DNA of 64,000 bases from Amphiscolops sp. MND2022 (Eukaryota), in contig OZ076409.1 of the NCBI GenBank assembly GCA_964187785.1, forward strand, positions 2,232,001 to 2,296,000. The letters run 5' to 3'. Of the stretch, positions 5,401 through 61,867 are shown piece after piece. A program made the position numbers and the translations under genes. The stretch's first letter is position 1. Each line of letters begins with the position of its first letter. The notes under the pieces are model-generated. The model saw only the letters and a program-made list of their open reading frames with translations. It did no database searches and was not told where the DNA came from.

Positions 5401-5507
5401 TAAAACTTGCGACGAGTTTTCTTATGTCTATTTTTCCCAGCTAAATAAATTAGGTTGAAAAAAACGAACTTCAGAAAACTTTTCGAAGGACGCAAATTGA
5501 TATATTA

Positions 5508-6829
5508 ACAAGCCGGGATCGACCCAAGTCGGCGCCATATCTAAGGCTCAAAAATACCAAAAGGACTTCAAAATGTCAAAGTATTGGTGAATTGGGGACC
5601 TTTTATGGAATTTTTTTCGCAAAAAGTCTCACAATGCCGAAAAAACTGAAAGGGGGGACCATTTGGGATTTTTCAAAATCCATTCTGTCCAAAAATATCA
5701 AAAAATTGAAGGTGGGACCCTTCGGTGAAAAAAATTTTTCGAAAAAAAGTCTCACAGAGCCGAAAATACTCTTTGGCCCCCTTGAGTTTCTTAAATGATA
5801 TAAAAATACTACTTCGTAAGCTAAGAATTGTAAGAAATTGAGAAATTGTAAGATTGTAAGAATTGTAAGAAAAGTGGACCATTCGAGTGAGATTGTCAGC
5901 AAAAAAAGAAAAAAAAACAAGCCGGGAACAGCCCAAGTCGGCGCCATATCCAAGGCTCAAAAATAGCAAAAAGACTTCCAAGTGTCAAGTATTCGTTTAC
6001 AGTAGTCGAAAATCAAAAAATTTTCGAAAATTTTTTTTTGAAAAAATTACATACTAAAAAAACGGACCGAGTGGCGCGCTAACGTCTCACAATGCCGAAA
6101 AACTGAAAGGGGGGACCCTTTGAGGTTTTTCAACATCCATTCTGTCGCAAAACATCAAAAAAATGCAGGAGGGAGTCTTTGAGGAAAAAAAATTTCGAAA
6201 AAAAATCCGAAAAAAAATGTCTCGCAGTGCCGAAAAAAATTGAAAGGGGGACTCTTTGGTCTCGCCCGGTATGATATGTTACGCGGAAAAACAGGTAAAA
6301 CCATTTTGGTCCAGTTCGCTAGGCCAAATGGTGCTATTTGACACCATAATATTTTGTAGAACTTTTAAGAACTATTTTGGTCAGTTCGTGTGGATAGAAA
6401 AAAAAAGAGTCACTATAATAGTCGCGTTTCACTTCATGAAGCGCCGACCAAAAAAACAAGCCGGGAACAGCCCAAGTCGGCGCCATATCTAAGGCTCAAA
6501 AAGACTCGAAAACCACTTTTTCTACAACTGGAGACAACAAAAGCTCTCAAAAAACTAAAAATTGAGAAAAAAAATCCGAATTTTTTTGAATTTTTTTCCG
6601 AAGTTTCCGGTAAGTCGCATAGTGCCGAAAAATGTAAAAGGGGGGACGCTTTTTATCTCATGTTAGACGCTTTGGATGCGTTGAAAATGAAGTACTAAGT
6701 ACATATGGTAAAAGTTGGTAAATGTGCATTAATTGCATTAATGCACAAAAAGTGGACGTTACGCGTTGAACTGACGAAAAAAAACTAGCCACTGTAAGAG
6801 TCGGGATTTTCTTCGAAAACGCCGACTAA
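5508..6829. mobile_element. Three head-to-tail Helentron-like non-autonomous elements (HINE family A): 5508-~5915 (truncated), 5917-6449, 6456-6829
   Basis: Each starts acaagccggga...aagtcggcgcc inside an A run; the second and third end in a hairpin agtcg...cgccgac(t/c)a; no TSD. Confidence 0.75.
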
Positions 6830-8649: not shown

Positions 8650-10960
8650 CTAGACATGACTCGCTCGTAAATTTTAGTCATGTCACATGGCAAACAAATA
8701 CCGACTGCGTCACAGAGACGAAGAAACAAATTGCAGAAGTACCAGACTCTCCTGGTTATTTGACCATAACAAACAATTCCTCTTCGAACCCTGGTCCCTC
8801 AGGGGGAGTTCTTTTAGTTCTCGATGTCAACATCAAGCCGAGCGTTTTCAATCTTCAAATCGAATCGAAAACCAGCATTCGACTTGGGCAATTTGTAACG
8901 TTTCGAGCAAAAGCATTCTAGTAGGGGGTTTACTGCCGTCCAAATAGTATAGAAGAAATGAGAAGAGTTCTCTATGAAATTAGATTAGCGATAAAAAAAA
9001 TTTGGGCGTGTCCAATTTTCTTCTTGGCGGCTTCAATGCAAGGCATCCAAGCTGGGGCGACAAAAGCAATGCGCAAGGGGAAATCTTGAACGATTTCCGA
9101 CAACAAGAGACATCATAGCTCTTAATGATGGGGAGCCCACATTCACATGCACAAATGGAAAAAGCGTAATCGACTCGGTTATATGCAACGCCAATCTACA
9201 CAGGCTTTTTGCGGCCTCGGAATAGACTATTACACTGAAATGTTCACTGGCGACCCAAACAGAGGCCAATACCCAGTTATTGCCACATTTGATATCGCAG
9301 GAAACGGCACATCCACTCATGTAAAAGACCTCAAGAAAACCGATTGAGAAAATGGAGGGAAACACTGGAAAATTGCGTTCAATCGCGATGGCTTAAAATT
9401 GACGAATGCCATGATGCTACATGTTTATGGGGCATCTTGCTGCAATGTATCAGCGAAGCAGCCAACCTCACTATATTTCTCAAGCAAATCACTTTACAAT
9501 CAAAACCATACTTTAATGAAGAGTTGAAAATGCTTTAATTTCAACACCGAAAAGACAGGAAAATAATGAAACTCAGACCGGACCCCTTAAACACCTTCAA
9601 TTATGAAACCCTCAAACAAGAATTTCCGACTACCTCGATGAAATCCAAAGCTGAGCATTATAAAACTTGTGCAGAAACCCTGAACGTCAGCAACGGCTCA
9701 GATTTCTGAAAAGCCAGAAAATTTGTTGACTCGTACCAGAGATACAATACCAATGGTATGTCTTATTTCAAATGGCAAAGTTCCAGTAACGCTGATAAAT
9801 TTGAACATCTTTACGTTTTTCTCCGACAGTCGCCTCCACAGAAATATGTTTGATGAATCTTGGCTGAGGAATGTCGAAGACAAACTCACGGCAAATCTAC
9901 ATCAGTATTATGTGCAACCACTGAGCATACAGATAAGCGAAGAAGAGCTTGACAACGCTCTGAAGGAATCGCAAACAAGCAAGAAGTCCTACGATCCAGA
10001 TGGCATACATCCACTCATGCTCCGTCACACCGGAACTTTCTTTAAAATTGCCTGTCTCATGCTTTTTAACCTCTGTTTACATGCAGGCACCTACAATTGG
10101 AATTTAAATCAAGTCATTTTCCTCCGAAAACCTCACAAAGAAGACTACAATATCGCAAACACTTACAGACGAATTACACTCACTTCATACGTAGGAAAGC
10201 TGTTTGAACGCATTATAGAGAGACGATTGGGAAATGACTTGGAGGCGAAAGGGCTGATCGATGACAGCCAAGAAGGATTCAGAAAGCGGAGATGCACTGG
10301 TAGATGCATTTACAAACTCGTAGATAATATTCAAATATTATTGAGCAAGGAAAAGTAGCGGCTGCCCTTTTCATCGACCTCGAGAAAGCATTCGACTCGA
10401 TTTGGATTGACGGTCTCATGTATAAACTCCGTGAAGCAGGAATAAACAGCTACATTCTGAACATCATTGACCATTATCTCCGAAACAGAAACGTCTACAT
10501 CGAAACAGGCGAAAACCGATCAGAAAGCTTCAAGCCAAAAGTTGGCCTCCCTCAAGGAACCATTCCTTCTCCAATTTTCGTTTATCTTCTACATTGCAGA
10601 AATTTTCCAAGAATGCAAAGGTAAAACTGAAAAGTACGCTGATGACGCCACACATGTTTCAGCAGGTGACTCGATGGAAGAAGCTCTTTCGCATCTCCAA
10701 AAAGATTGCGAGGAAATCACAAAACGGATTGGAAAGTGCCGTCTTAACATCTCGGGGCCGAAAACAAAAGTTGTCATCTCATCTTTTCAAATATCTGTGA
10801 AGAAATCCGAGAATCTACAAAGAATATAGTGTTGCAAGGAAACACGATAAATTTCACGACAGAGTCAACAGCGCTCCGTATCACAATCGGTAACGAATTG
10901 AATTTTCGAGAAATGTTCAAGAAAAGCAGAAAAAGCCATGGGAGTTTTGGAACCTCATGT
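8650..10960 (+). mobile_element. Decayed non-LTR retrotransposon (LINE) ORF2: AP-endonuclease and RT remnants
   Basis: GGFNARHPSWG (EN); SYDPDGI, YRRITLTSYVGKLFERII, QEGFRK, FIDLEKAFDSIW, GLPQG, KYADD (RT); many stops and frameshifts; boundaries approximate. Confidence 0.88.
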
Positions 10961-11119
10961 ATACTGAGAATACATGAGTATCTGCAGTACTGCAGTCGAG
11001 AGGCCTGTTCAGTTCAGTTCAACTCAGGGATGGGAGCATTTAAATGTTTTGCTACCATTTCGGCCCAAGCTTCACCTTATTTGGTATAGAGGAGATAGAA
11101 GCTCTAGGCCACGTTTTTT

Positions 11120-11601
11120 TTAGTCGGAGCTTCATGAAGTGAAACGCGAACATGATAGTGACTTTTTTCAATCCACACGAACTGTCCAAAATAGATCTTA
11201 AAAGTTCTACCAAATTGTATGGTGTCAAATTGAACCACTTGGGCTGGGGAACTGACCACAAAGGTTGCTTTTTTTTCAGCGTAACATACAATACCGGGCG
11301 AGACTGAAGAGTCCCTCGTCCAGTTTTTTTTCGAAAAAAATATTTCCAGAGGGTCCCTTCAATTTTTTTGATGTTTTGCGACAGAATGGTTATTGAGAAA
11401 TCCGAAAGGGTCCCTTTTTCAGCGCGCCAGGGGCCCGTGCTAACGGGAAACGCGCGCGCCAGTTCGGTCGTTTGGGTTTTTCGAAAGTGTTTGGAAACTT
11501 TTTTGTAAGTTGGAAACTTTCGAGTTTTTTTGACTCTTTAATGTCCTTTTGCTATTTTTGAGCCTTGGATATGGCACCAACTTATGCCGTTCCCGATTTG
11601 T
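11120..11601. mobile_element. HINE family A copy
   Basis: tagtcggagcttcatgaagtgaaacgcg hairpin to ...ccgttcccgatttgt. Confidence 0.7.
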
Positions 11602-15488: not shown

Positions 15489-18400
15489 CAGGGGCGGTAA
15501 TATTACACGGACATGACAACTGAAAAAGCACGGAAAATTTCACGAACAAATACACTCTTGAAGGTTACCACAAATTAGTAACCTGTAATAGGTCTGACGG
15601 AAATAGAGGGGGAGTGGGACTCTTTATTGATAAAAGGTTTGCCTACCAAGTACAACTGAAAGATACTGTTCATGAATGGTTGATAGTGAAAATTATGTAT
15701 CCCTTCGAAGCAATCATTTGCGTCACCTACCGCAGAGACAAAAAGTTTTCAAAGTCTCAATATTGTGAATGGTTAGAACTTGAATTAACAAGATTGCGAG
15801 CGATCAAGGGCAACGTTTTCGTCTGCGGAGATTTCAATATCGACCTTCTAGTCCCAATTATTCACTCGACAGAATTACAGGACATTATGAGAATCAATAA
15901 TCTTGAACTCAGAAGTCCTTTAGAAGTGACAAGAGCTCAAGAGAATTCAAAAGCTTGCTTGGACCACATCTATTCGGATAATCCTGTCAATGAGAATCAT
16001 GTTTATCATAGTACAATCACTGATCATTTCATGGTTTGGGTCAAGTTCGAAAAACGACTCTTTTCCCCCGGGAAGAATAATTGTCTCTCGTAACTTGAAG
16101 AAGCTCGCGAAATATCCAATCTTGGGAAAATTTAAGAGTCACATAGAATCGAATCTGCACTCAGTGAACTGGGAATGTATTGAAATAAACGATGAAGTGG
16201 AATTATTGCAAACAACCATTTTAGCTGCACTGGATCATTTTGCTCCGGAGAGGCCGGTTATTAAAAAACACAAGTCATGGGTCGACAACAGTATCAAACA
16301 ATTAATCTGGCAACGTGATAAGTTGTATAAGAAAGTATGCCGCCCACCTGATGATGAAGTTTTGAAACAGCGATTTAGAGACTTGAGAAATCGAACTAAG
16401 TTGATAATTAGAAAAAAGAAAACATGATTTCATCAAGGAAAAGTTCAAGATCATTGGATCGGATAGCAAAGCAATCCATAGTCACTTGAATGGAGTACTT
16501 GGTAAAAGAAATGAATCAACAATGCCGTTGCTGTCGAGGGAAAAAAGATTAGATGATTTTAACAATTATTTTGCAGCAGTTGGCTTAAACAATCAAAAGA
16601 CGATTGACGTGAATAAAATGAGTTTCCCACTCTCCCCGAGTGTTCAATCGATGTTTCTTCTACCAGTTAATTGTTTGGAACTTTGTAATATTATACAAAA
16701 ACTCAAGAATAAGAATTCGTTTGGCCCCGATGGAATCAGTAACAAGGTACTCAAACTCTGCTTCAACTCAATTATTGAACCTCTGCAAATACTAATCAAC
16801 CGATGCATGTGCGAAAGAAGTTTCGCGAAAAACCTAAATATAGCTAAAGTGGTTCCAATCGACAAAGACGGAGACAAAAGTAAATTTGACAACTTTAGAC
16901 GACCTATCTCTGTTGTCTGGATTGGCGAAAATTTTTGAACGAGTGATTTATAATCGCATGGTTTCGTTTTTGCATACCTTTTGTTTGCTTGATGAAAATC
17001 AATTCGGATTTAGACGAAAAAGGCAAACAATCGATGCCCTTGCATGTGTAATAGAATCAATCATATCATCAATAAGTTTAAAGGAAAATGTGTGTTGTAT
17101 CTTCTTGGATCTGAAAAAAGCATTTGATACAAAAGACCACCGGCTTTTTTTGGAGAAGTTGTACAACTTAGGTTTCAGGGGCCCTGTTAACAAACTGATA
17201 CTTTCTTATTCGAATGACCGATTTCAATTCATGCAGATTGGAATTGAATTTTCGGAAACAGTGGCAGTCACTTGTGGGGTACCACAGGGTTAGGTATTGG
17301 GACCTCTTCTTTTCTTGCTTTTTGTGAATGACCTTCCGTATCGCATTAGCGCCAAAGTGACGATGTTTGCCGATGACACAAATGTTTTAGTCAGTCAGAT
17401 CAATTATCTTTGAACAACTCACTTCACACGATTGATGAATGGATGAAGTACAATAAACTAAAATGCAATCTTGATAAGTCAAAGGCGGTAATCTTCGGTA
17501 ACAAAGAACACGTACTTGAAAGCTTGAAGTCCGAAAGGATTGTATTGAAAGAAGCCTCAATTGTGAAATATCTGGGTGTTCTAGTTGATGAAGAACTAAC
17601 ATTTAAGGATCACGTTGAATTGGTCAAGAAAAAAGTGAACAAATGTTTCTATGCTGTGTTGAAGGCACGTCAAGTGCTGACGCAATCTCAGACGTTGGTC
17701 TACTATAAAACCCATGTCAAACCAGAAATTCAGTATGGAGTGCTCATATATGGAGGAACCATGTATTCGAATTTGCAGTCCATTTTGAAGATGCAAAAAA
17801 AGATAGTTAGATGTATCTTTCACCTAAGCTTCTCAACTAGTGTCAAGGAAGTGATGAACAGTAATAAAATTCATACTGTTTATGAACTTTATTTGTATGA
17901 AATTACAAAAATCATGCTGAAATGCCTGAAAAATGAACATTGCATTGAGTTTCTTATTTCGATGATAACCCAAAAACTACGTCTTGTTATGAACTACGGG
18001 TGGCAGAAAGAGCACATGTTTCAATAACCCGTAACAAGCATTGTAAGAATTTTTTATCACACAGAGTGCCGAAGTTTTTCAATAAACTGAATTCTTGGGG
18101 AGTCCTTCCGAATAAAACTTCACACGAATCAATGACTAATGGTATGATTGATACTTACTGTCATAATTTCATGGATTCTTACATTTTAGGAAACCAAGAC
18201 CTAGTTGATTTTCTCTTTGACTTGAACAAATGAGTGCCACTGCGGGCTGGAAAGGGGAAAATACTTTCAATTGATCACATTTTGAATTTATTGAGTCCGG
18301 AATAGCTTTTTATTTTAAAAAAACGGAGTCGTTTTATAACTTGAAACCATCGTAATGTATTTGTATGGTTGGTGGTGGTGAATCCACCCATCAAAAATTC

Positions 18401-47533: not shown

Positions 47534-48628
47534 CCAAGGCTAAAAGGAGATTAAAATTTCATCAATTTTACAGCGCCAAAAAATACCCGAAGGGATACGC
47601 GTAAGCCTCGAAAACCATTCTCCCCCAACTGAAAACAGCAAAAAACCCATTCTTTCTCAACGGAAAACCTTAAACAGAAAATAGAAGAAAAAAAATTCAA
47701 AATTTTTCGAAAACATTTTTGATGGTCTCCGGTAAGTCGCAAAGCCTTGAGGAGTCCTCTCGCAAAACGTTTCGTTTCTTGTAAACATTGAGCAGGGGCT
47801 TCGGTGAAAACAAATTTTAAAAAAGTCGCATAGAAAAAAGATCGGTCTTTAAAAAAACGGTCTTTTAAAACTAAAAATTGAGAAAAAAATTTCCGTTTTT
47901 TTTGAAGTTTCCGCTAAGTCGCATAGTGCCAAAAAATGTGAAAAAGGGACCCTTTAGGATTTTATAACATTCGTTCTGTTGCAAGATATCCAAAAAGTGA
48001 AAGGAGGACGCTTTGGGGACATTAAAAAATTTTAAAAAATAAGGGAGTCTAAAAAATTTTTGAAAAAAAATTAGAATTTTGAACAGTCTCATAGTGCCGA
48101 AAATTCTGAAAAAAAGGACCCTCTGGGATTTTTTAACATTCGTTCTCTTGCAAAATATCAAAAAAATTGAAAGGAGGACTCTTTTGGGATTTTTAAAAAA
48201 TTTCGAAAAAAAAGTCTCACAAAGCCGAAAAAGTCTCACAAAGCCGAAAAGTCTCATAGTGCCGAAAAAAGTCAGAACCTTCTGCTTCGGAATACTTGTA
48301 AAAAAATTAGCGCATACCCACGGCTTCGAACACGAAACCTCTGGGTTGAAAAGCAAGCATCTTACCACTAGACCACGAACGCGTGAAACGTGCGAGTTGC
48401 CGCGTGAAATCAGAGAGTTGTCGCGCGGAAAAAAAAAGCACCCGCACTTTCCCATAACACTTGCTTATCGCAAGTGTAATCAAGTTCCATTCGTTATAGG
48501 TGTTATTGGACAATGAAATTGAAGCGAGTGGTAAACAGGTAGTGTGATTTCAGTGAATTCAACTCGATCTTTTCTGTTAATCCCCCACCCCACTTAAGTG
48601 GTCAAGCGAAATTATCATTGAATTAATA

Positions 48629-48935: not shown

Positions 48936-49094
48936 CTGAGGGCATGTGCACTGGTGAACCCGATAGCCTGGACCGACACCTCCTTCAGGTCCGAGTGCTC
49001 TCCCCGCAGAATGGGGATGATGGTGTGACGTAACAGCTGCCCTATGCTCTCCCTCTTCTCCACCACAGCCGCTGTCGAAGTACCTGTACCCCCA
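48936..49094 (-). CDS. fry: furry exon (GGTGTST...IIPILRGEHSDLKEVSVQAIGFTSAHAL)
   Basis: Acceptor ttggcag, donor AG|GTTAAT; FRY-like motif. Confidence 0.88.
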
Positions 49095-49982: not shown

Positions 49983-50986
49983 ACACAGAGGCGAAGCCGT
50001 GCTTCGCAAACGCTTGCGAACTTTTGAAGAAAACCAAATAAGCGATATCATAAGGAGAACCCAAGGGTAAAAGGACATTAAAAATTCATCAATTTTACAA
50101 TATACAGCGCCAAAACATACCCGAAAGGATACGCATAAGTCTCGAATACCATTCTTCCCCCAACTGAAAACAGCAAAAAACCCATCTTTCTCAACGAAAA
50201 ACCTTTAAAAAACAGAAAATTGAGGGAAAAAAATTCAAAATTTTTCGAAAATATTTTTGATGGTCTCCGGTAAGTCGCATAGTGCCGAAAACCTTGAGGA
50301 GTCCTTAACTCTCGCAAAACGTTTCGTTTCTGGCAAAAATTGAGGAGGGGCTTCGGTGAAACAAATTTTTTAAAAAAGTCGCATAGAAAAAAGCATAGAA
50401 AAAACACCGGTCTTTTAAAACAACAAAAATCGGATATTGCGTGCCGGACCCGAGAAAACCTAATTTTAACACGAAAATTATTCCTTTTGAAAAATGTCAC
50501 AATGCCGGAAACTGTGAAAAAGGGGACCCTTTGAGATTTTTAACATCCATTCTGTTCAAAATTTCAAAAAATTGAAGGGGGACTCTTTGGAGACTTCAAT
50601 AAAAAATTTTCGAAAAACAAAAAAATGAGAAATTTTAAGGGCAGTCTCATAGTGCCGAAAAATCTTAAAAAAGGGACCCTTTGGGATTTCTTAACATTCG
50701 TTCTGTTGCAAAATATCAAAAAATTGAAAGGACTCTTTGGGGAAGTTTCAAAAAATCGAAAAAAATGTCTCACAAAGCCGATAAGTCTCATAGTGCCGAA
50801 AAAAAAGAACCTTCTGCTTCGGAATACTTGTAAAAAAAACAAGCGCATACCCACGGGTTCGAACACGAAACCTCTGGGTTGAAAAGCAAGCATCTTACCA
50901 CTAGACCACGAACGCGTGAAATGAGAGAGTTGTCGCGAGGAAAAAAGCACCCACACTTTCCCATAACACTTGCTTATCGCACGTGT
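49983..50986. mobile_element. HINE family C copy with tRNA-derived segment (~50846-50913, minus)
   Basis: Same termini as 39846/48477; TGGTCTAGTGG A-box and GTTCGAACCC B-box-like. Confidence 0.7.
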
Positions 50987-51515: not shown

Positions 51516-52943
51516 ACAAGCCGGGATCGGCACAAGTAGGCGCCCCACTCAAGCGCCCAAGGTTTTTTAAATATGCTACGAAACACTAATGTGAAAATTT
51601 TCAAATTTACTGTGCCAAAAAATACCCGAGAGGATACCCATAAGACTTGAAAACCACTTTTCTAAAACTGGAATTAACAAAAAACCCATTTCTTTAAAAA
51701 ATTTTTATTCGGAAAAAGGCTCATAGTGCCGAAAATGAAGCTTTAAAAGAGCACACTACTGAGAAAGCTTCTATCAAATTTACAGTACCAGAAATACCCG
51801 AAGGGATACCCATAAGACTCGGAAACCGCGTTTTCCGTGACTCGAAAAATCCGTGACATTTTTTCATTTTAATTGTTTTCTGAAAAAGTCTCGGCGTCGA
51901 AAAACCCAGAAAAACCCTCGAGTTAGCAAAACTCTTTTTCAAGCTGTCAACATTCATGAAAGTGAAGGGGGTGGGGTACACTTTGACCAAACACTTTTTT
52001 CGAAGTCGCGCAGTCCAAAAACAGTAGGTCATTTCCACAATAATTGAGAAAAGTTTACTCAGTTCCACAGGGTCAAAAATATTCCACGAGGTTACCCTTT
52101 GGACTCCGAAAAGTGTTTTCCCCCCAGAAAACCTCAAAAAAAAACAAGAAATTTGAGGCCAAAATCTTTTGGATAATTCTTCTCCGCAAAATATTTTTAA
52201 ATCTCCGTAAGTCGCATTGTGCCGAAAAAAACCGAACTTGGCCTCTAAGCACGCTTCTTACAAAAAGTCAATGAAAGTCGAAAAAGTGCTTCCTTACAAA
52301 CTATTTTAACAAGTTTTTCAGTTGGCGGCGCTTTTCGAAGAAAGGAACCGCCGACTATAGCGCCTATGGCTATTTTGAGACGAGCGATTTCGGCTCGGAA
52401 AAAAGTAGTTTTGCGAGTTGGAAGCTCTTTTTCAGCACAGATTTTTTAGTCGGCGCTTTTGTTAGTGAAAAGAGCCCGACTATTACAGTGGCTAGTTTTT
52501 TTTTAACTTTTTTTCGTCAGACCACAGACCTCATCGCGTATGTACCACTTTTTACAGAAACTGATAAAACTACTCAGACTACTCAGGCCAAGTCCAGCCA
52601 ATGCAAACTTAGTGCAAAGGGTCCCCCCTTTCATTTTTAACCTTTTTTACGTAACCTACAAAACCAGAAGAGACTAAAGGGTCTTCCCTTTCAATTTTTT
52701 TCGGCACTGTGCGACTTTTTTCGAAAATTTTTAATGTCTCAAAAGAGTCCCCCTTTCGAGTTTTCGATATTTTGCAACAGAATATATGTTAATAAAGCCC
52801 AAAGGGTCCCCCTTTTACATTTTTCGGCACTATGTGACATTTTCTGAAAGAAAAAAATCAAAATTTCCAAGTTTTTTTAAAAAAAGTCTTTTGCGCTTTT
52901 TGAGCCTTAGATATAGCGCCGACTTTAGACGTTCCCGTCTTGT
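51516..52943. mobile_element. Two HINE family A copies in opposite orientation (51516-~52357; 52444-52943)
   Basis: acaagccgggatc start; ttttagtcggcgc hairpin; ...cccgtcttgt end. Confidence 0.65.
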
Positions 52944-52993
52944 TAATTATTGAATGGACTCAATGTACATTTTGCAACTGAAAAGAACTGGTC

Positions 52994-53099
<106 letters not shown>

Positions 53100-53102
53100 T
53101 AC

Positions 53103-53401
53103 TTGAGGTGGGCCAGAGGAGCTGGCGGCGGCGGCGGCCGGTGTGACGGAGGTTGAGAGGGTGGCCTCTAGGGTGCTGTTTCTGCTCACACACGAGGAGG
53201 ACGTCCAGGCCCCACACGCCACTGTGAGGTAGTTGCGCCACAGTCCCAGGTAGTACTCATGAATGGGAGAGGGCCGCTTCGGGGTCCGTCTCAGGGTGGC
53301 AGCTGTCACTTCCTGTGGGTTTGTCTGGTCAATGAGAATGCTCATGAGGTTGATTCTGGTGCTCACGAAATTCCACGCGTGGTTCACCGCGTCCACACAT
53401 C
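53103..53401 (-). CDS. fry: furry exon (CVDAVNHAWNFVSTRINL...LGLWRNYLTVACG...GPPQ)
   Basis: Acceptor cctttttag, donor CAA|GTATGT; strong FRY-like motifs. Confidence 0.9.
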
Positions 53402-53680
53402 CTAAAAAGGAAACAAAGGAATTAGTCTGTCGTCTATTGAAGTCAAGTCTGTCTCTGAGACAAAACTTGATAGCAACACCTCAAACGTTAGACCATTTGT
53501 TTGAAAACAAAACGCTTCGTGTAAAGATTTTTCTGCCAGCTGCAGACTGCAAAGCCTCATTGCAAAATCAATGACGGTTCCATGGAAGAATGGGAAAACT
53601 TCAGCACCAAAGGGCTGATCTAGAAAACAAAACAACAAAATGCATGACATCAAGATCATCACAAATGAATTGGTGATAAA

Positions 53681-54192
53681 TAGTGTTGTTAGATAAAAAT
53701 CAATTGATAAATATCAATGATAAAAATCAAGATAATTATCAAGCTCAGTTTTCATTATCACTGATTAAAATCAAATTCGACGCTTGCAGGCCTGATCGGG
53801 TCTAGCTCAATTAGGCGATCGGTCAGCTAACCGATTGATAAATTGGAAGACTATCAGCTTTTTTATAAATTCATTAGTTTATTCAACTTCGCTCACGGTG
53901 GTATGGATTATAGCCGAACGACATTAAAGACGAATGGTATTTTTGAGTTTTCAATCATTACCTTACGTAATCTTCCAACTGAGCATCGAAGAGTGTGTTG
54001 ACAAAGCGGGAAAACTTTGTTTCAAGATTCTGAATAAATAACGAATTTGCTATTTTGTCACTGGCTTACACGTAATTCAATTGTTTCTGCCCAACCCTAT
54101 TTTTATCGAATTTTTTTGATAATTATCCGATTCTCAAAAAAAATCGAATATTTTTGATTTTTTAAATAAAATCAAGATTTTTAACAACACTA
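53681..54192. mobile_element. hAT-type MITE
   Basis: TIR TAGTGTTGTTA; 8-bp TSD GTGATAAA (53673-53680, 54193-54200). Confidence 0.82.
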
Positions 54193-54535
54193 GTGATAAA
54201 CTACCATCATAAACTATGTTTATTGGCATGTCATGAACTACCACGGCCTTGCCTTTCCTCGTGTGCAATAGTCGCAAGAGATGGATTCACTTCTAACTGA
54301 CTACGAGTGTATAGCACAGAGCTTCGAATGAGAACGCAGCTAATTTTGCACGTTCTGTGGCAATCGCGTCCTTTCTCCGAGATCTTAAGGGCTGGCTACC
54401 CGTGACATTAAATTGTTTGAGGCTAGAGGTCCTGGGCATGTATTACAAGAGAAGACCAATGGATTGAAAGTGTTCTGTCTTATTTTCGTGCAGTATCAAT
54501 TAAAAAGACGGCAAATTAAAAAAGGCAAAAAGAAA

Positions 54536-54772
54536 ACAAGACGCCCGCGGACCAGCGGGATATTTTCCGCCCCAAATCATTTGAGCAACAAAATCGTTTT
54601 AAGTCCAAAAATCTTTACAAATACATATCGCATGGAACTAAAATTATGTCAGTTGAATTCTGTGAATGTACTTCTTCATATTACGTAAACAATAATTCTT
54701 GGCAAATTATGTAAAAAAACCCGTTTGATTTAAATATTTTCCTTTCCCATATGGAATATGGGCGGAAAATAA
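54536..54772. mobile_element. HINE family D copy
   Basis: acaagacgcccgc...tattttccgccc; end hairpin ...cccatatggaatatgggcggaaaa. Confidence 0.6.
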
Positions 54773-56211
54773 AAAACTATTTCCAATGTCTCAAAAGTGT
54801 ATTGAGCGTTTTGTTTGTTTTCAAGTCAACCAAGTTCCTGATTTGCTTCAAATTTTGAGATTGAGATTATGAAAAGATTCCAAAACGTAATTCAGAACAG
54901 TGTATTGTCGTATACTGAGTTCCTCTTATAACATGTAATCGTATTGTCGAACGTTTCGTATATCGTATATTCGTATAATTGGCCCTCTTATACCGTATAA
55001 AGGCATGAAACATAATTTTTGGATCATTTTTCTATCGGAAAGTGTTGATTACCTCAGGAAAGGTGATTGCAATAGTCCCCTTTCCGTATTCCATGTAGCC
55101 TATTTCCATTTTAGGATGCATTTCATTTGAAATTCATAACAAAATTTTCATATTTTCCAAAAACTTCCTTGCCCGTTACGGCAAAATCGACGCAAAACGA
55201 CTGAAAAACGATTCTCCGTATAACTCGTATAATAATTGGCATCTCCGTATAACATGTAATTCGTATAGAAAATAGTGGGTTTCGTATAATTTTTCGTATA
55301 ATCGTATATCTTGTACAATAGACTGATTCAGAAGTATAAAAAACTTTAGAACACACCTCGTGATTTTGTTCGAATTTTCTGTTTGATCTTTTTGCAGCCT
55401 CAAGACATGTTTCTCGCCTAAAGAGGCCGCCTTTTTCAGACATCTACCGAAATTTTTTTTTCTAATTTGGTCGAATTTTCGCCGAACTTTTCTTGAATCA
55501 ATTTTGATATTCTCTGTCTAAAAATTGATCTTTAACTCATCGACGTTTCTGTCAACAGACACTACACTAGTGAAAGGTAAAAAACACAAAAACATCTAGT
55601 TTTGGCAAGGAATTGTCTGAGCGTGTATTTTGGGGTATGACTTTTGATCTAGCGAATTAGCGACCGTGCATGAATTGTTCAGCGATTTCATCAGCGATTC
55701 AAACAAATGGTAACTAATGGAATGTCCGAAATCAAATTTTTCTCAGATTATACTCGGATATTCAAAATGAACTTCAAAAATCCAACTCTTACCACTGTAA
55801 AACCTCGACAGTATAAAAAATTCCAGTCTGTTTGGGCTCAGAGATTATTTAAGCATGTCCACAACTTTAGCAGCTGCAGAACTATTTAGCGATCTTCGAG
55901 CGGGCATATATTTGACATGAAAATGTACCGGGACTTCAATTTTAGTTTCTTTTCCTTTTTAGTTTTCAAATTGATTCTTGAAAGATGCTCCAAGTTAGTA
56001 AACAGCTAATAGTTTGGAGAAAAACCTTTCTGTAGAGAAGAAGCGATTTTTGAATTAGCGTTTTAACGATTAGCGGAAAAACTTAGCGATGTCAAAACCG
56101 TGCCGACAATGTACTTGAATTAACTAAGTAGGGTAAACATCATTCTAACTCAGGAAATGAATCTCATTTCACTTTGTTCATTAATAGTAGAAAGAAAAGT
56201 ATCATAGATCG

Positions 56212-56712
56212 AAAAATGGGCGCCTCCGGGGCACACTAGTCTTCCATTAATAATAGAATCATATCTGGAATACAAATACTTTTGTGTTTAATCATTATTT
56301 AGCGCATAATTAATCACTGTACCAATTTATACCGCCTTTAAATCTCGGACTAAAGCAAATATAACTACTAAGCGTAGACGAAGTTTCGCATTCGCATTTG
56401 AATGCAGGCGAAGCTCTCGGCCAATGAACAATTAACACTCATTCGCTTGATCTCAATTACTCGGCGTACAAAAAAAAATAACGAACATTCGCTCGCTTCA
56501 TCTCAATGACGTCAGCCTACGAATGCATAATTACCACTCGCTCGCTCCATCGCACGAAGATTGAAATGTCGTCGGCAGCTTGAGAAAATTAATTCTCACG
56601 CTTACACTCACTGCCGAACAAAACATCTGAATTTTTCAGTGAATACAAACAAAAATTTTACTGGAAAAAAGTAAAACTTTCAGATTTCCATAGTATTCCT
56701 GCTTTGCAGAAT
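56212..56712. mobile_element. HINE family B copy
   Basis: Colinear with 21733-22207 and 59165-59680. Confidence 0.72.
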
Positions 56713-56788
56713 AATAATAATAATAATAATGCTGATAGAGTGGGTTTCCAGCTTTTGCAAGAGGGGGGGGGGCGAAAGTAGTACTTTC

Positions 56789-57098
56789 CTGGCACCATGA
56801 GACAGTAGGGACTGTTGATGAGGTGGATGATGCAATAGAACCAGGGGTCGAAAGTGTCTCTGAGGTTGCACGCCGCGCTCTCCTTCAACACACAGTAGTT
56901 GCCGCCACTGTCCCCCGCTCCTGTTGCTGCTGCTGAGGATGATGACGTCACAACTGATGACGTCACGGGCACAGTGGAGGAGGAGGAGTTGGTGGCACAC
57001 TCGAAAGGCAGGTCGTAGCTGGCATTGACACACCACATGGGAGAGGTCTTCTCACAGAGCCAGTTCAAATCCGGGGCAGCTGCCGTCGCTGCCCAGAA
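56789..57098 (-). CDS. fry: furry exon (FWAATAAAPDLNWL...FDPWFYCIIHLINSPYCLMVP-G), probable GA donor
   Basis: Acceptor gtttgtag phase 0; next exon needs phase 1, given by CAG|GAAAGT; DPW motif. Confidence 0.8.
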
Positions 57099-59919: not shown

Positions 59920-60395
59920 TTTTAGTCGGTGCTTTATCCTTTGGAGGAAAAATGCCCGACTATAGCAGTAACCTTTTTTTTCTTCAGACTACAATCCTCA
60001 CACTGATCGGTCCACTTTTCAGAAACAATCCTGAAACCACCTAAGGCGCCAAGTCGGGCCAATGCAACCTTAGTGCAAAGGGTCCCCCTTTCGTTTTTTA
60101 CTTTTTCAAGGTAACCCAAAACCGGACGGGACTAAAGAGTCCTTCCTTTCGATTTTTTTTTCGGCACTGTGCGACTTTTTTTCGAAAATTTTTTTATGTC
60201 CCAAGGGGTCCCCCCTTTGAGTTTTTTGTTATTTTGCAACAATGCATGTTTATAAGTCAAAAAGGGTCCCCCTTTTACATTTTTCGGCACTGTGCGACAT
60301 TTTCCGAAAGAGAAAAATTGTTTTTCCGAAAAAAAAAATGTTTTGCGCTTTTTGAGCCTTAGATATAGCGCCGACTTTAGACGTTCTCGTCTTGT
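59920..60395. mobile_element. HINE family A copy
   Basis: ttttagtcggtgc... to ...agacgttctcgtcttgt. Confidence 0.72.
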
Positions 60396-60885
60396 TTCTT
60401 CCCATCAAGACATACTTTAAAAATCTGTTCATAACATTGGTTCGTGAACAACTTCCATTTCAATTCAAGTAAACAAACTCAGGAAATCGGGTGTGTGTTC
60501 TCTTAATATATCTTATCATATCATATAGGATCAAAAAAATGTTATCAACTAATTATTGAAATGGTGATAAAATTGTTAGATAATACATTATACATGATAT
60601 TCAGTAATTATAATATCATTAGAACTCTTATCATGATATTACCACTTCAAAAAACAAGCACTTTGATTGCTTAATGCCTTCATATAGTTGACCGTTCGTA
60701 TTTTCAATAAAAAACTTTAGTACAGGACGCGAACCCATGAACTCCTGCTTCTGAAGTTGCGTTTCCTGGAAATCGGAGTAAACCAGTAGGCCAAATTTAA
60801 AAATTTTTGACCCATGCAAAATTTATAAAAAGACGCTTCGAAGTGACTGAAGAAAAAAATTGCCATTATAAGAGTCGTGCACTTT

Positions 60886-61212
60886 TTTGTCGGCGCTTTT
60901 CGTAGAAAACGCAGACTATAGCAGTGACTCTTTTAGGACCAACGAAGTGACTTGCACTAACACTAACTGCCACACTACTTCTACTGGCACTTGAGATAGA
61001 GGTTAATTAGGCTTTTTTGAGGTCCCCTTTTACATTTCTCGGCACTATGGCACTTACCGGACACCAAAAAATTGAAAAAAAATATAAAGTTTCGACAATT
61101 TTTTTTCAATTTTTTCCTCATGCGGGTACTGTAGAAGAGAATACTTGGAAGTCCTTTTGCTATTTTTGAGCCTTAGATATGGCGCCGACTTAGACCGTTC
61201 CCGGCTGGCTTG
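60886..61212. mobile_element. HINE family A copy (same subfamily as 58029-58386)
   Basis: Shared internal sequence and termini. Confidence 0.7.
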
Positions 61213-61240
61213 TTTCAAAAAGCACCGACTAAAAACCAAC

Positions 61241-61427
61241 CGTCGAGTGTTTGGTCTCAAATGGCAGAGAGTGCAAAGAGACAAGCCCTCCACTCTCCTC
61301 AGGGCACTGATGCACTGCTCGTTGTCGTCCTTCTTGAGGCTGTTAGACTTGGATTTGGGCGTCACGTTTTCAGCCGCCACATTAGAGAACATCAGGGGGG
61401 ACGCCTTGGTCGGAATCGGCGCCGGGC
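61241..61427 (-). CDS. fry: furry exon (GPAPIPTK...VEGLSLCTLCHLRPNTR)
   Basis: Acceptor ttccag, donor CG|GTTGGT; FRY-like VEG...LC...TRR motif continues into next exon. Confidence 0.85.
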
Positions 61428-61867
61428 CTGGAATAGAAACCCAGAATGATGGAACAAAACAAAAAAGAAATAATATTCTTAGTCGCGATTGACCTATTAT
61501 AGTCACTGCCGAAGAAAATATCTGAATTTTTGAGTGTCACGACAAGAATTGTTCTGAAAAAAAGTAGAATTCTTGATGTTTCAATAATAACAAGTGAGGC
61601 AGACGTTTGAAAAGCCGAAGAAAGATAGGTATCTTCTTCCAAAACCGAAATACAGCACCTAATCTAATTCGAAAACTGGTTTCAACACATCTCGGAAAAC
61701 TTGAGATGAAAAGCATAACAAAAAATACAATGAAATACATGTTGAACATTTTTGAATACAACATTTTGATAGCTTTGTTAGGGTTTGGAATTTCTTATCA
61801 AATATTCTCATGTTTCCAGCGCAATTGCCCATACCGGCTCTGGTTGCACGTGTTGTTGTTCTATCGT

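What the first reader, a model, noticed from the sequence alone, without database searches (positions are those of the whole stretch)
53402..56788. Probable non-canonical GA-AG intron in furry (donor CAG|GAAAGT)
Seen: the downstream exon has one natural acceptor (pyrimidine tract ending cctttttag) and starts GA-TGT-GTG, so the upstream exon must end in phase 1. The nearby GT sites fail: ATG|GT is phase 0, AA|GT is phase 2, and T|GT would create TGA. CAG|GAAAGT is phase 1, gives ...CLMVPGCVDAVNHAW and matches the U1 consensus CAG|GTAAGT at every position except +2. Established: GA-AG introns are very rare in most animals and reported as enriched only in a few lineages. Inference: this organism's spliceosome tolerates A at +2. 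Caveat: a weak all-canonical alternative exists (ATG|GTGCCA to an upstream gacag), but it would put the pyrimidine tract inside the exon.
Basis: partly seen in the sequence, partly recalled or inferred. Interest (0 to 1): 0.78.

Follow-up and report, generated by a model that had tools for sequence, protein, structure and literature searches.

The report
Probable GA-AG intron in furry
One intron of this animal's furry (cell-shape) gene appears to start with GA instead of the near-universal GT; it is a rare but known kind of exception, supported here by protein comparison but not yet by RNA.

Summary
On the minus strand an exon ends ...CTC ATG GTG CCA G at 56789 and is followed by GAAAGT. The next exon starts at 53401, after CTAAT, a pyrimidine tract and TAG. 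Only the junction CAG|GA...AG|GA gives a gapless fit to the one related protein that spans it (window SPYCLMVPG-CVDAVNHAW, relative SPQYLKSPGCIEAVNHAW). Every GT/GC alternative adds 5-12 residues and uses poor signals.

The gene is probably furry: MOR2-PAG1_N exons lie 11-31 kb upstream on the same strand.

Apart from +2, the donor is a perfect U1 match. That is rare here, since only 2 of 59 surveyed GT donors have the full consensus. This argues for a tolerated, working site rather than a random base error.

No RNA run could be listed, so splicing is inferred, not shown. An assembly error or a private allele is not excluded.

The organism-wide claim is not supported. None of 75 surveyed junctions in other genes has a convincing GA or GG donor, and none of 23 U1 genes has a compensating change. 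However, furry also holds a likely GG-AG intron and a GC-AG intron upstream of the window.

Verdict: a probable new member of a known rare class, of moderate interest.

The parts
56789..57098 (-). Upstream coding exon (310 nt, ends in phase 1): FWAATAAAPDLNWLCEK...HLINSPYCLMVP + G of the split Gly codon
   Evidence: 55% identical to P0003 over residues 11-102. Acceptor tgtttgtAG at 57100-57099.
56783..56791 (-). 5' splice site CAG|GAAAGT (G = 56788, A at +2 = 56787)
   Evidence: It reaches the maximum of the flank-only donor score (8.7). It would pair with 8 of 9 positions of the common U1 5' end ACTTACCTG read.
53402..56788 (-). Inferred GA-AG intron, 3387 nt, 64% A+T
   Evidence: No Rfam family in it. 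No coding-like ORF in it (GC3 filter).
53421..53425 (-). Branch-point-like CTAAT, with the branch A (53422) 20 nt before the intron's last base
   Evidence: YTNAY scan of the last 60 nt. Inferred, not tested.
53402..53420 (-). Pyrimidine tract and 3' splice site tcctttgtttcctttttAG
   Evidence: Acceptor score 8.9, against -1.9 to 0.5 for the other AGs nearby.
53103..53401 (-). Downstream coding exon: GA + CVDAVNHAWNFVSTRINLMSILIDQ...; its donor is CAA|GTATGT or a GT inside the (CTGT)n run that follows
   Evidence: 56% identical to P0003.
56794..56795 (-). Canonical GT 7 nt upstream of the GA site (ATG|GTGCCA), phase 0, out of frame with the natural acceptor
   Evidence: donor score -2.3. A possible U1 landing aid by analogy with FGFR; this is speculation.
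56783..56784 (-). GT at +5/+6 of the GA site (AAA|GTACTA), phase 2; its use would shift the frame
   Evidence: donor score -2.5. Reporter work in human cells saw shifts to such a +5 GT (PMC6280755, passages).

Best explanation
A genuine U2-type intron of 3387 nt in the furry (FRY, MOR2-PAG1) orthologue has GA instead of GT at its 5' end. It is cut at CAG|GAAAGT ... CTAAT-(Y)n-TAG|G, joining CCA G + GA TGT into Pro-Gly-Cys. The standard U1 snRNA (5' ACUUACCUG) most likely recognises the site through 8 of 9 possible pairs, with a single A-A mismatch at +2. A strong branch site, pyrimidine tract and AG at the other end support it. Efficiency is probably below that of a GT site. The GTs at -7 and +5 could compete and give out-of-frame products. 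Shown: the sequence, the frame logic, the collinearity with a relative, and the rarity of such a perfect flank in this genome. Inferred: that the RNA is cut there, and how well.
For: (1) All donor x acceptor pairs near the two exon ends were enumerated and scored against P0003. GA(56789)-AG(53401) is the best (519) and the only gapless one. The next best add 5-12 residues.
(2) In the alignment P0001 ends MVP opposite KSP, one column (G) follows, and P0002 starts CVDAV opposite CIEAV. The split codon G|GA supplies exactly that Gly.
(3) The flank-only splice score ranks the same pair first by about 11 units. The rival donors score -2.3, -2.5 and -12.3, and the rival acceptors -1.9 to 0.5.
(4) Perfect flanks are rare here. 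Of 59 GT donors kept from the survey, 2 have MAG|GTRAGT and the best scores 8.1, against 8.7 for the GA site. MAGGTRAGT occurs 0 times in the window. A random T-to-A error or mutation would seldom hit such a site. Known working GA donors share this feature: obligate exonic AG and A at +3 in E. affinis (PMC5714493, text read), and functional +2T>A/G variants that derive from strong GT sites (PMC12805630, passages).
(5) The flanking exons are intact and conserved, so the locus does not look like a decayed copy.
(6) The same gene has a junction that fits two relatives and the Pfam profile only with a CAG|GGA donor, plus a GC-AG junction.
Against: Only one relative spans the junction. It is an unnamed predicted protein from an ENA contig, whose own model may be a prediction. 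Its DNA could not be fetched, so it is unknown whether its intron starts GT or GA. No raw reads were seen, so a base error or a private allele at 56787 is not excluded. In other genes none of 75 scorable junctions has a convincing GA or GG donor (reviewed). None of 23 U1 genes has a compensating base at position 7. In human reporters GA is a weak donor that needs enhancers (PMC6280755, passages).
Confidence: 0.6

Rival explanations
1. The A at +2 is not the species' normal state. It is either a base error of the assembly or a rare (possibly heterozygous, defective or leaky) allele of the sequenced individual, and the usual donor is CAG|GTAAGT.
For: A single T-to-A change would give the textbook donor. 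The relative's gene model joins the same residues, which a GT-only gene finder could do only at a canonical site; this is inference about an unknown pipeline. No other convincing GA donor in 75 junctions. Only one copy of the site is in the assembly, so no second haplotype could be compared.
Against: A random error or mutation should hit an average donor, and only 2 of 59 GT donors here have the full consensus. A second +2 departure (GG) in the same single-copy gene would need a second independent accident in an essential, otherwise intact gene. From general knowledge, not tested here: substitution errors are rare in chromosome-scale long-read assemblies.
Confidence: 0.25
2. The intron is canonical. 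Either ATG|GTGCCA (exon end 56796) is joined to gacAG|ACT (exon start 53426), giving ...CLM-TNSFVSFLG-CVDAV. Or AAA|GTACTA (56785) is joined to atAG|ACG (53433), giving ...VPGK-RQTNSFVSFLG-CVDAV.
For: Both pairs keep the frame open. Donors in this genome are often weak (median flank score 2.2). Another furry junction also has an in-frame canonical alternative with extra residues.
Against: These pairs add 6 or 10 residues that the relative lacks. Donor scores are -2.3 and -2.5 and acceptor scores -1.9 and -1.1. They would also place the CTAAT branch motif, the pyrimidine tract and the TAG inside the exon.
Confidence: 0.08
3. Something else: an unseen small exon between the two, a GC donor (TTC|GCCCCC at 56774), or a dead gene copy.
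For: The GC pair scores second against P0003 (504).
Against: The GC donor scores -12.3 and adds 5 residues. The relative leaves no room for extra residues. The exons are intact and the locus is single-copy.
Confidence: 0.04

Closest known systems
GA-AG introns of the vertebrate FGFR1-3 genes (Brackenridge et al. 2003; paper not held, known here only through PMC7072748, PMC6280755 and PMC5714493)
   Same: A U2-type intron with a GA donor, an otherwise strong site, and a canonical GT a few bases upstream that is said to support it.
   Different: In FGFR the GT is 6 nt upstream and the two sites give in-frame isoforms. Here the GT is 7 nt upstream and out of frame. FGFR splicing is shown experimentally; here it is inferred.
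GA and GG donors of the copepod Eurytemora affinis (Robertson 2017, PMC5714493, text read) and GA-AG of Oikopleura dioica (PMC7072748, passages)
   Same: Exonic AG before the site and A at +3; both hold for CAG|GAA here and for the CAG|GGA candidate upstream. Gene models break at such sites.
   Different: In E. affinis these donors make up 10-12% of introns. Here 0 of 75 surveyed junctions are convincing cases. By my arithmetic, 0 of 75 at a true rate of 12% has probability about 7e-5.
Rare human GA donors (14 of 222,263 introns, cited in PMC5714493; ITPR1 GA-AG validated by RT-PCR, PMC4176328 passages) and functional +2T>A/G variants in ATM (PMC12805630 passages)
   Same: Isolated GA donors in a genome that otherwise uses GT. 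They arise from strong GT sites and still give full-length product.
   Different: Those cases have RNA proof, and many are alternative or low-efficiency sites. Usage here is unknown.

Membership tests
U2-type GA-AG intron | G at +1, A at +2, AG at the 3' end, in frame with both exons | tested here: met
U2-type GA-AG intron | Rest of the 5' site close to the U1 consensus (exonic AG, A at +3) | tested here: met
   CAG|GAAAGT has the maximal flank score of 8.7. The rule is taken from PMC5714493.
U2-type GA-AG intron | The intron is removed from RNA at these exact bases | not testable with these tools
U2-type GA-AG intron | Not a U12-type intron (no /RTATCCTT donor) | tested here: met
   The donor reads GAAAGTACT. 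The motif is recalled, not from a tool.
FGFR-type GA site | Canonical GT 6 nt upstream giving an in-frame alternative | tested here: not met
   The GT lies 7 nt upstream in phase 0, against phase 1 for the GA site.
Lineage-wide GA/GG usage (E. affinis type) | About 10% of introns with GA or GG donors | tested here: not met
   75 scorable junctions of 76 pairs gave GT 66, GC 4, GA 4, GG 1 by the automatic rule. All 5 GA/GG picks score low, and in 4 of them the margin over the next candidate is at most 2.0. The fifth, D4-0, is the only candidate of a doubtful pair. Three have GT solutions on review. The method is blind to weak non-canonical sites.
Lineage-wide GA/GG usage (E. affinis type) | A U1 variant able to pair with +2 A | tested here: not met
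   All 23 U1 matches were read and none has T at position 7.
Furry / FRY (MOR2-PAG1) gene | MOR2-PAG1_N domain in the same transcription unit | tested here: met
   Four PF14222 exon matches at C1:2307326-2326982, minus strand, 11-31 kb upstream of the window end. P0005 and P0006 match PF14222. That all these exons form one transcript is inferred.
Furry / FRY (MOR2-PAG1) gene | MOR2-PAG1_mid domain | tested here: inconclusive
   PF14228 gave no match in the genome, and its controls rang nowhere. 13 window ORFs gave no MOR2 hit.

The most novel reading that the evidence does not exclude
This animal has loosened and diversified 5' splice-site recognition. After an exonic AG|G, any base may stand at +2: GC in 4 of 75 surveyed junctions, and GC, GA and GG all within furry. 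A third of its GT donors have T at +3, and they are matched by U1 genes with A at position 6. That would make it a further animal lineage, besides E. affinis and O. dioica, in which G rather than GT is the only fixed donor base.
Probability: 0.15. Interest if true: 0.7.

Novelty: new member of a known kind. Interest (0 to 1): 0.4.

Why it matters
Gene finders that allow only GT or GC donors will break or frameshift the roughly 3000-residue furry model at this point. The fragmentary models of the relatives (225-327 aa) suggest this already happens in the group. If RNA confirms the junction, it is a natural, constitutive GA donor in an essential conserved gene. It would show how far perfect U1 pairing can make up for +2, and give a reason to annotate this genome with non-canonical sites allowed.

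Tried and rejected
- **RNA evidence.** The look-up of sequencing runs (kind rna, 3996-base stretch) listed no RNA holder.
- **Relatives' DNA.** The metagenome-contig scan with VNHAWNF and YYL[GC][LV]WRN matched 216 stretches, none a relative. A first alignment was unusable.
- **Homologue searches.** P0001 and P0003 against longer proteins found none. The library search gave 2 hits, one of them an unrelated repeat protein, P0004. The 'near' length range was never searched for the two junction exons.
- **Other searches.** PDB: no furry structure. Pfam on 13 window ORFs: only a sub-threshold PH_PLEKHM2 hit (19.1 against a cut-off of 22), taken as chance.
- **Earlier scan notes.** Nothing on this genome or sequence. 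The word search returned unrelated cases.
- **Readings rejected.**
  - A U12-type intron: the donor lacks the motif.
  - A-to-I editing: it would make GG, not GT.
  - A GC donor at 56774: score -12.3.
  - A small hidden exon: no room in the alignment.
- Brackenridge 2003 (PMC152907) is not held.
- **Literature string search.** ACUAACCUG never occurs in the held library. Its DNA form ACTAACCTG occurs in 136 papers, and none of the 10 listed concerns U1.

Full report
**What is in the sequence.**
- On the minus strand an exon opens after tgtttgtAG at 57098 and stays in one frame to ...CCC TAC TGT CTC ATG GTG CCA G (last base 56789). It is followed by GAAAGTACT.
- The next coding stretch starts at 53401 (GA TGT GTG GAC GCG...). 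It is preceded by gacagaCTAATtcctttgtttcctttttAG.
ATG|GT is phase 0, AA|GT is phase 2, T|GT gives TGA, and CAG|GA is phase 1 and fits the acceptor.
- The inferred intron is 3387 nt and 64% A+T. A YTNAY-type CTAAT places its branch A 20 nt from the 3' end.
- It holds no Rfam family and no coding-like ORF.

**Is the gene furry?**
- Pfam found nothing in 13 minus-strand ORFs of the window. PF14228 found nothing in the genome, although its controls rang nowhere.
- PF14222 (MOR2-PAG1_N) matches four exons at C1:2307326-2326982 on the minus strand. That is 11-31 kb upstream of the window (C1:2232001-2296000) in the direction of transcription.
- Two unnamed relatives of those exons, P0005 (98% identical) and P0006 (79%), carry the same domain.
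- So the identity is well supported. That all these exons form one transcript is inferred.

**Where is the junction?**
- A search of 1.84 billion representative proteins with the upstream exon gave two hits. P0004 is an unrelated repeat protein.
- P0003 (225 aa, an ENA-derived prediction with no name) covers both exons and the next one.
- The window reads SPYCLMVP-G-CVDAVNHAWNFVSTR and P0003 reads SPQYLKSP-G-CIEAVNHAWNFVSTR, with no gap. The single Gly column is supplied by the split codon G|GA.
- I enumerated every GT, GC, AT or GA donor within about 60 nt of the exon end against every AG or AC within about 120 nt of the downstream exon start.
  - GA(56789)-AG(53401) scores best against P0003 (519) and is the only gapless solution.
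  - The best GC-AG pair (504) adds 5 residues. The GT-AG pairs (497) add 6 or 10.
- A score of the flanking positions only (my own recalled metazoan weights, ignoring +1/+2) ranks the same pair first: 8.7 + 8.9, against 6.5 or less for the rest.
- The rival donors score -2.3 (ATG|GTGCCA), -2.5 (AAA|GTACTA) and -12.3 (TTC|GCCCCC). The rival acceptors score -1.9 to 0.5.

**Is the site a random accident?** I sampled other genes of the same genome, using Pfam exon matches with abutting profile coordinates.

| Family | Matches used |
|---|---|
| Myosin head | 53 of 69 |
| Cpn60/TCP1 | 38 of 43 |

- An automatic rule scored donor flanks plus acceptor, minus the deviation from profile length.
- It was applied to 76 exon pairs. 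75 had candidates: GT 66, GC 4, GA 4, GG 1.
- All five GA/GG picks are weak.
  - In four of them the margin over the next candidate is at most 2.0.
  - The fifth, D4-0, is the sole candidate of a doubtful pair.
  - On review, M8-0, T1-5 and D10-2 have good GT solutions at another length. D3-0 and D4-0 stay unresolved.
- So 0 of 75 is a convincing GA or GG donor. By my arithmetic the rate is below about 4% at 95% confidence, far from the 10-12% of Eurytemora affinis (PMC5714493).
- The method would miss weak non-canonical sites.
- Of the 59 GT donors kept, only 2 have the full MAG|GTRAGT, 39 have exonic AG, and 12 have AG plus A at +3. The best flank score is 8.1.
- The GA site has the maximum, 8.7.
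- A random T-to-A error or mutation would therefore rarely land on such a site. Working GA donors are reported to need exactly this context (PMC5714493; PMC12805630 passages; PMC6280755 passages, which used CAG|NNAAGT reporters).

**How is it recognised?**
- All 23 U1 matches in the genome were read.
  - Eight start ATACTTACCTG.
  - Six have ...ACCTT.
  - Three have ATACTAACCTG.
  - Three have ATATTTAAACCTG.
  - Three are other forms.
- None has a change at position 7, which pairs with +2.
- The likeliest mechanism is therefore ordinary U1 pairing with one mismatch, 8 of 9 pairs. This is inferred.
- In human reporters GA ranks low (GC > TT > AT > GA > GG > CT). Cutting can also shift to a GT at +5 (PMC6280755), which here would break the frame.
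- The FGFR GA site is said to lean on a GT 6 nt upstream (PMC7072748, PMC6280755). Here a weak GT lies 7 nt upstream. The original FGFR paper is not held.

**More departures in the same gene, outside the window.**
- P0005 and P0006 both read FPLVTCLLAISHTKFF. P0005 aligns to PF14222 with no net indel, 290 residues for 290 profile positions.
- In this genome that junction (C1:2324192 | 2323639) needs the donor CAG|GGATCA. The best canonical pair (TTT|GTAATT) adds 8 residues and scores lower against both relatives: 829 and 679, against 852 and 702.
- The junction two introns further on, N4 to N5 (C1:2307317 | 2304550), fits P0005 exactly as GC-AG, AAG|GCTAGT.
- Both sites are single-copy in the assembly.
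- Two +2 departures in one intact, conserved gene are hard to explain as two accidents. However, the contrast with 0 of 75 elsewhere is unexplained.

**What remains open.**
- No RNA run was listed and no reads were seen.
- The relatives' DNA could not be fetched.
- Only one relative spans the GA junction.

**Odds.**

| Reading | Odds |
|---|---|
| Real, working GA-AG intron | about 0.6 |
| Base error or private allele | about 0.25 |
| Canonical alternative with extra residues | about 0.08 |
| Anything else | about 0.04 |

**Comparison and verdict.**
- The site has the features of known U2-type GA-AG introns: exonic AG, A at +3, and an otherwise strong site.
- It is not of the FGFR arrangement. 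The genome does not show E. affinis-like frequencies.
- It is a probable new member of a known rare class.

Noticed in passing
L043:7639-8192 (G000 C1:2323639-2324192, minus strand; outside the window): The furry N-domain junction fits two relatives (…CLLAISHTKFF…) and the Pfam profile only with a GG donor, CAG|GGATCA. The best canonical pair (TTT|GTAATT) adds 8 residues.
   Followed up: partly
L042:1317 to L041:8550 (G000 C1:2307317 | 2304550, minus strand): A GC-AG intron in furry (AAG|GCTAGT) that fits P0005 exactly. GC donors were also chosen at 4 of 75 surveyed junctions (two GCTAGT on contig C1383, AAG|GCAAGG on C3, and a weak one on C8). By my recollection that is more than the roughly 1% usual in animals.
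   Followed up: partly
L051, L057, L058 (U1 genes); donors in loci L014-L050: Three of 23 U1 genes begin ATACTAACCTG (A at position 6, which pairs with +3), and 20 of 59 surveyed GT donors have T at +3 (GTTAGT, GTTAGA...). This may be a matched second donor class. Three further U1 genes begin ATATTTAAACCTG. ACUAACCUG never occurs in the held library; its DNA form occurs in 136 papers, and none of the 10 listed concerns U1.
   Followed up: partly
window 52996-53102, minus strand: A (CTGT)n microsatellite starts at the donor of the downstream exon and keeps the frame open. The junction to the next exon (about 49083-49094) cannot be placed, because CAA|GTATGT (phase 0) has no phase-0 AG partner there. 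A GT inside the repeat may be the real donor.
   Followed up: partly
window 10328-10621 (+) and 15524-16090 (+): Fragments of non-LTR retrotransposons on the strand opposite to furry, and so presumably within its introns (no furry gene model was built for this part of the window): RVT_1 (E 4.7e-11) and an Exo_endo_phos endonuclease (E 6.3e-7).
   Followed up: yes
window, e.g. 5454-5795, 6369-6695, 11055-11537, 47874-48464, 50081-50539, 52641-52950, 60045-60404, 61057-61536: A dispersed repeat family with recurring pseudo-peptides (…PKSAPYLRLKN…, …FFGTMRLF…) fills much of the intron space on both strands.
   Followed up: no
contigs C908, C1383, C1751 of G000: Several CCT-family genes lie on small contigs (137-164 kb for C908 and C1383) rather than chromosomes. 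These could be haplotigs or foreign DNA. Two of the GC-AG cases come from C1383.
   Followed up: no
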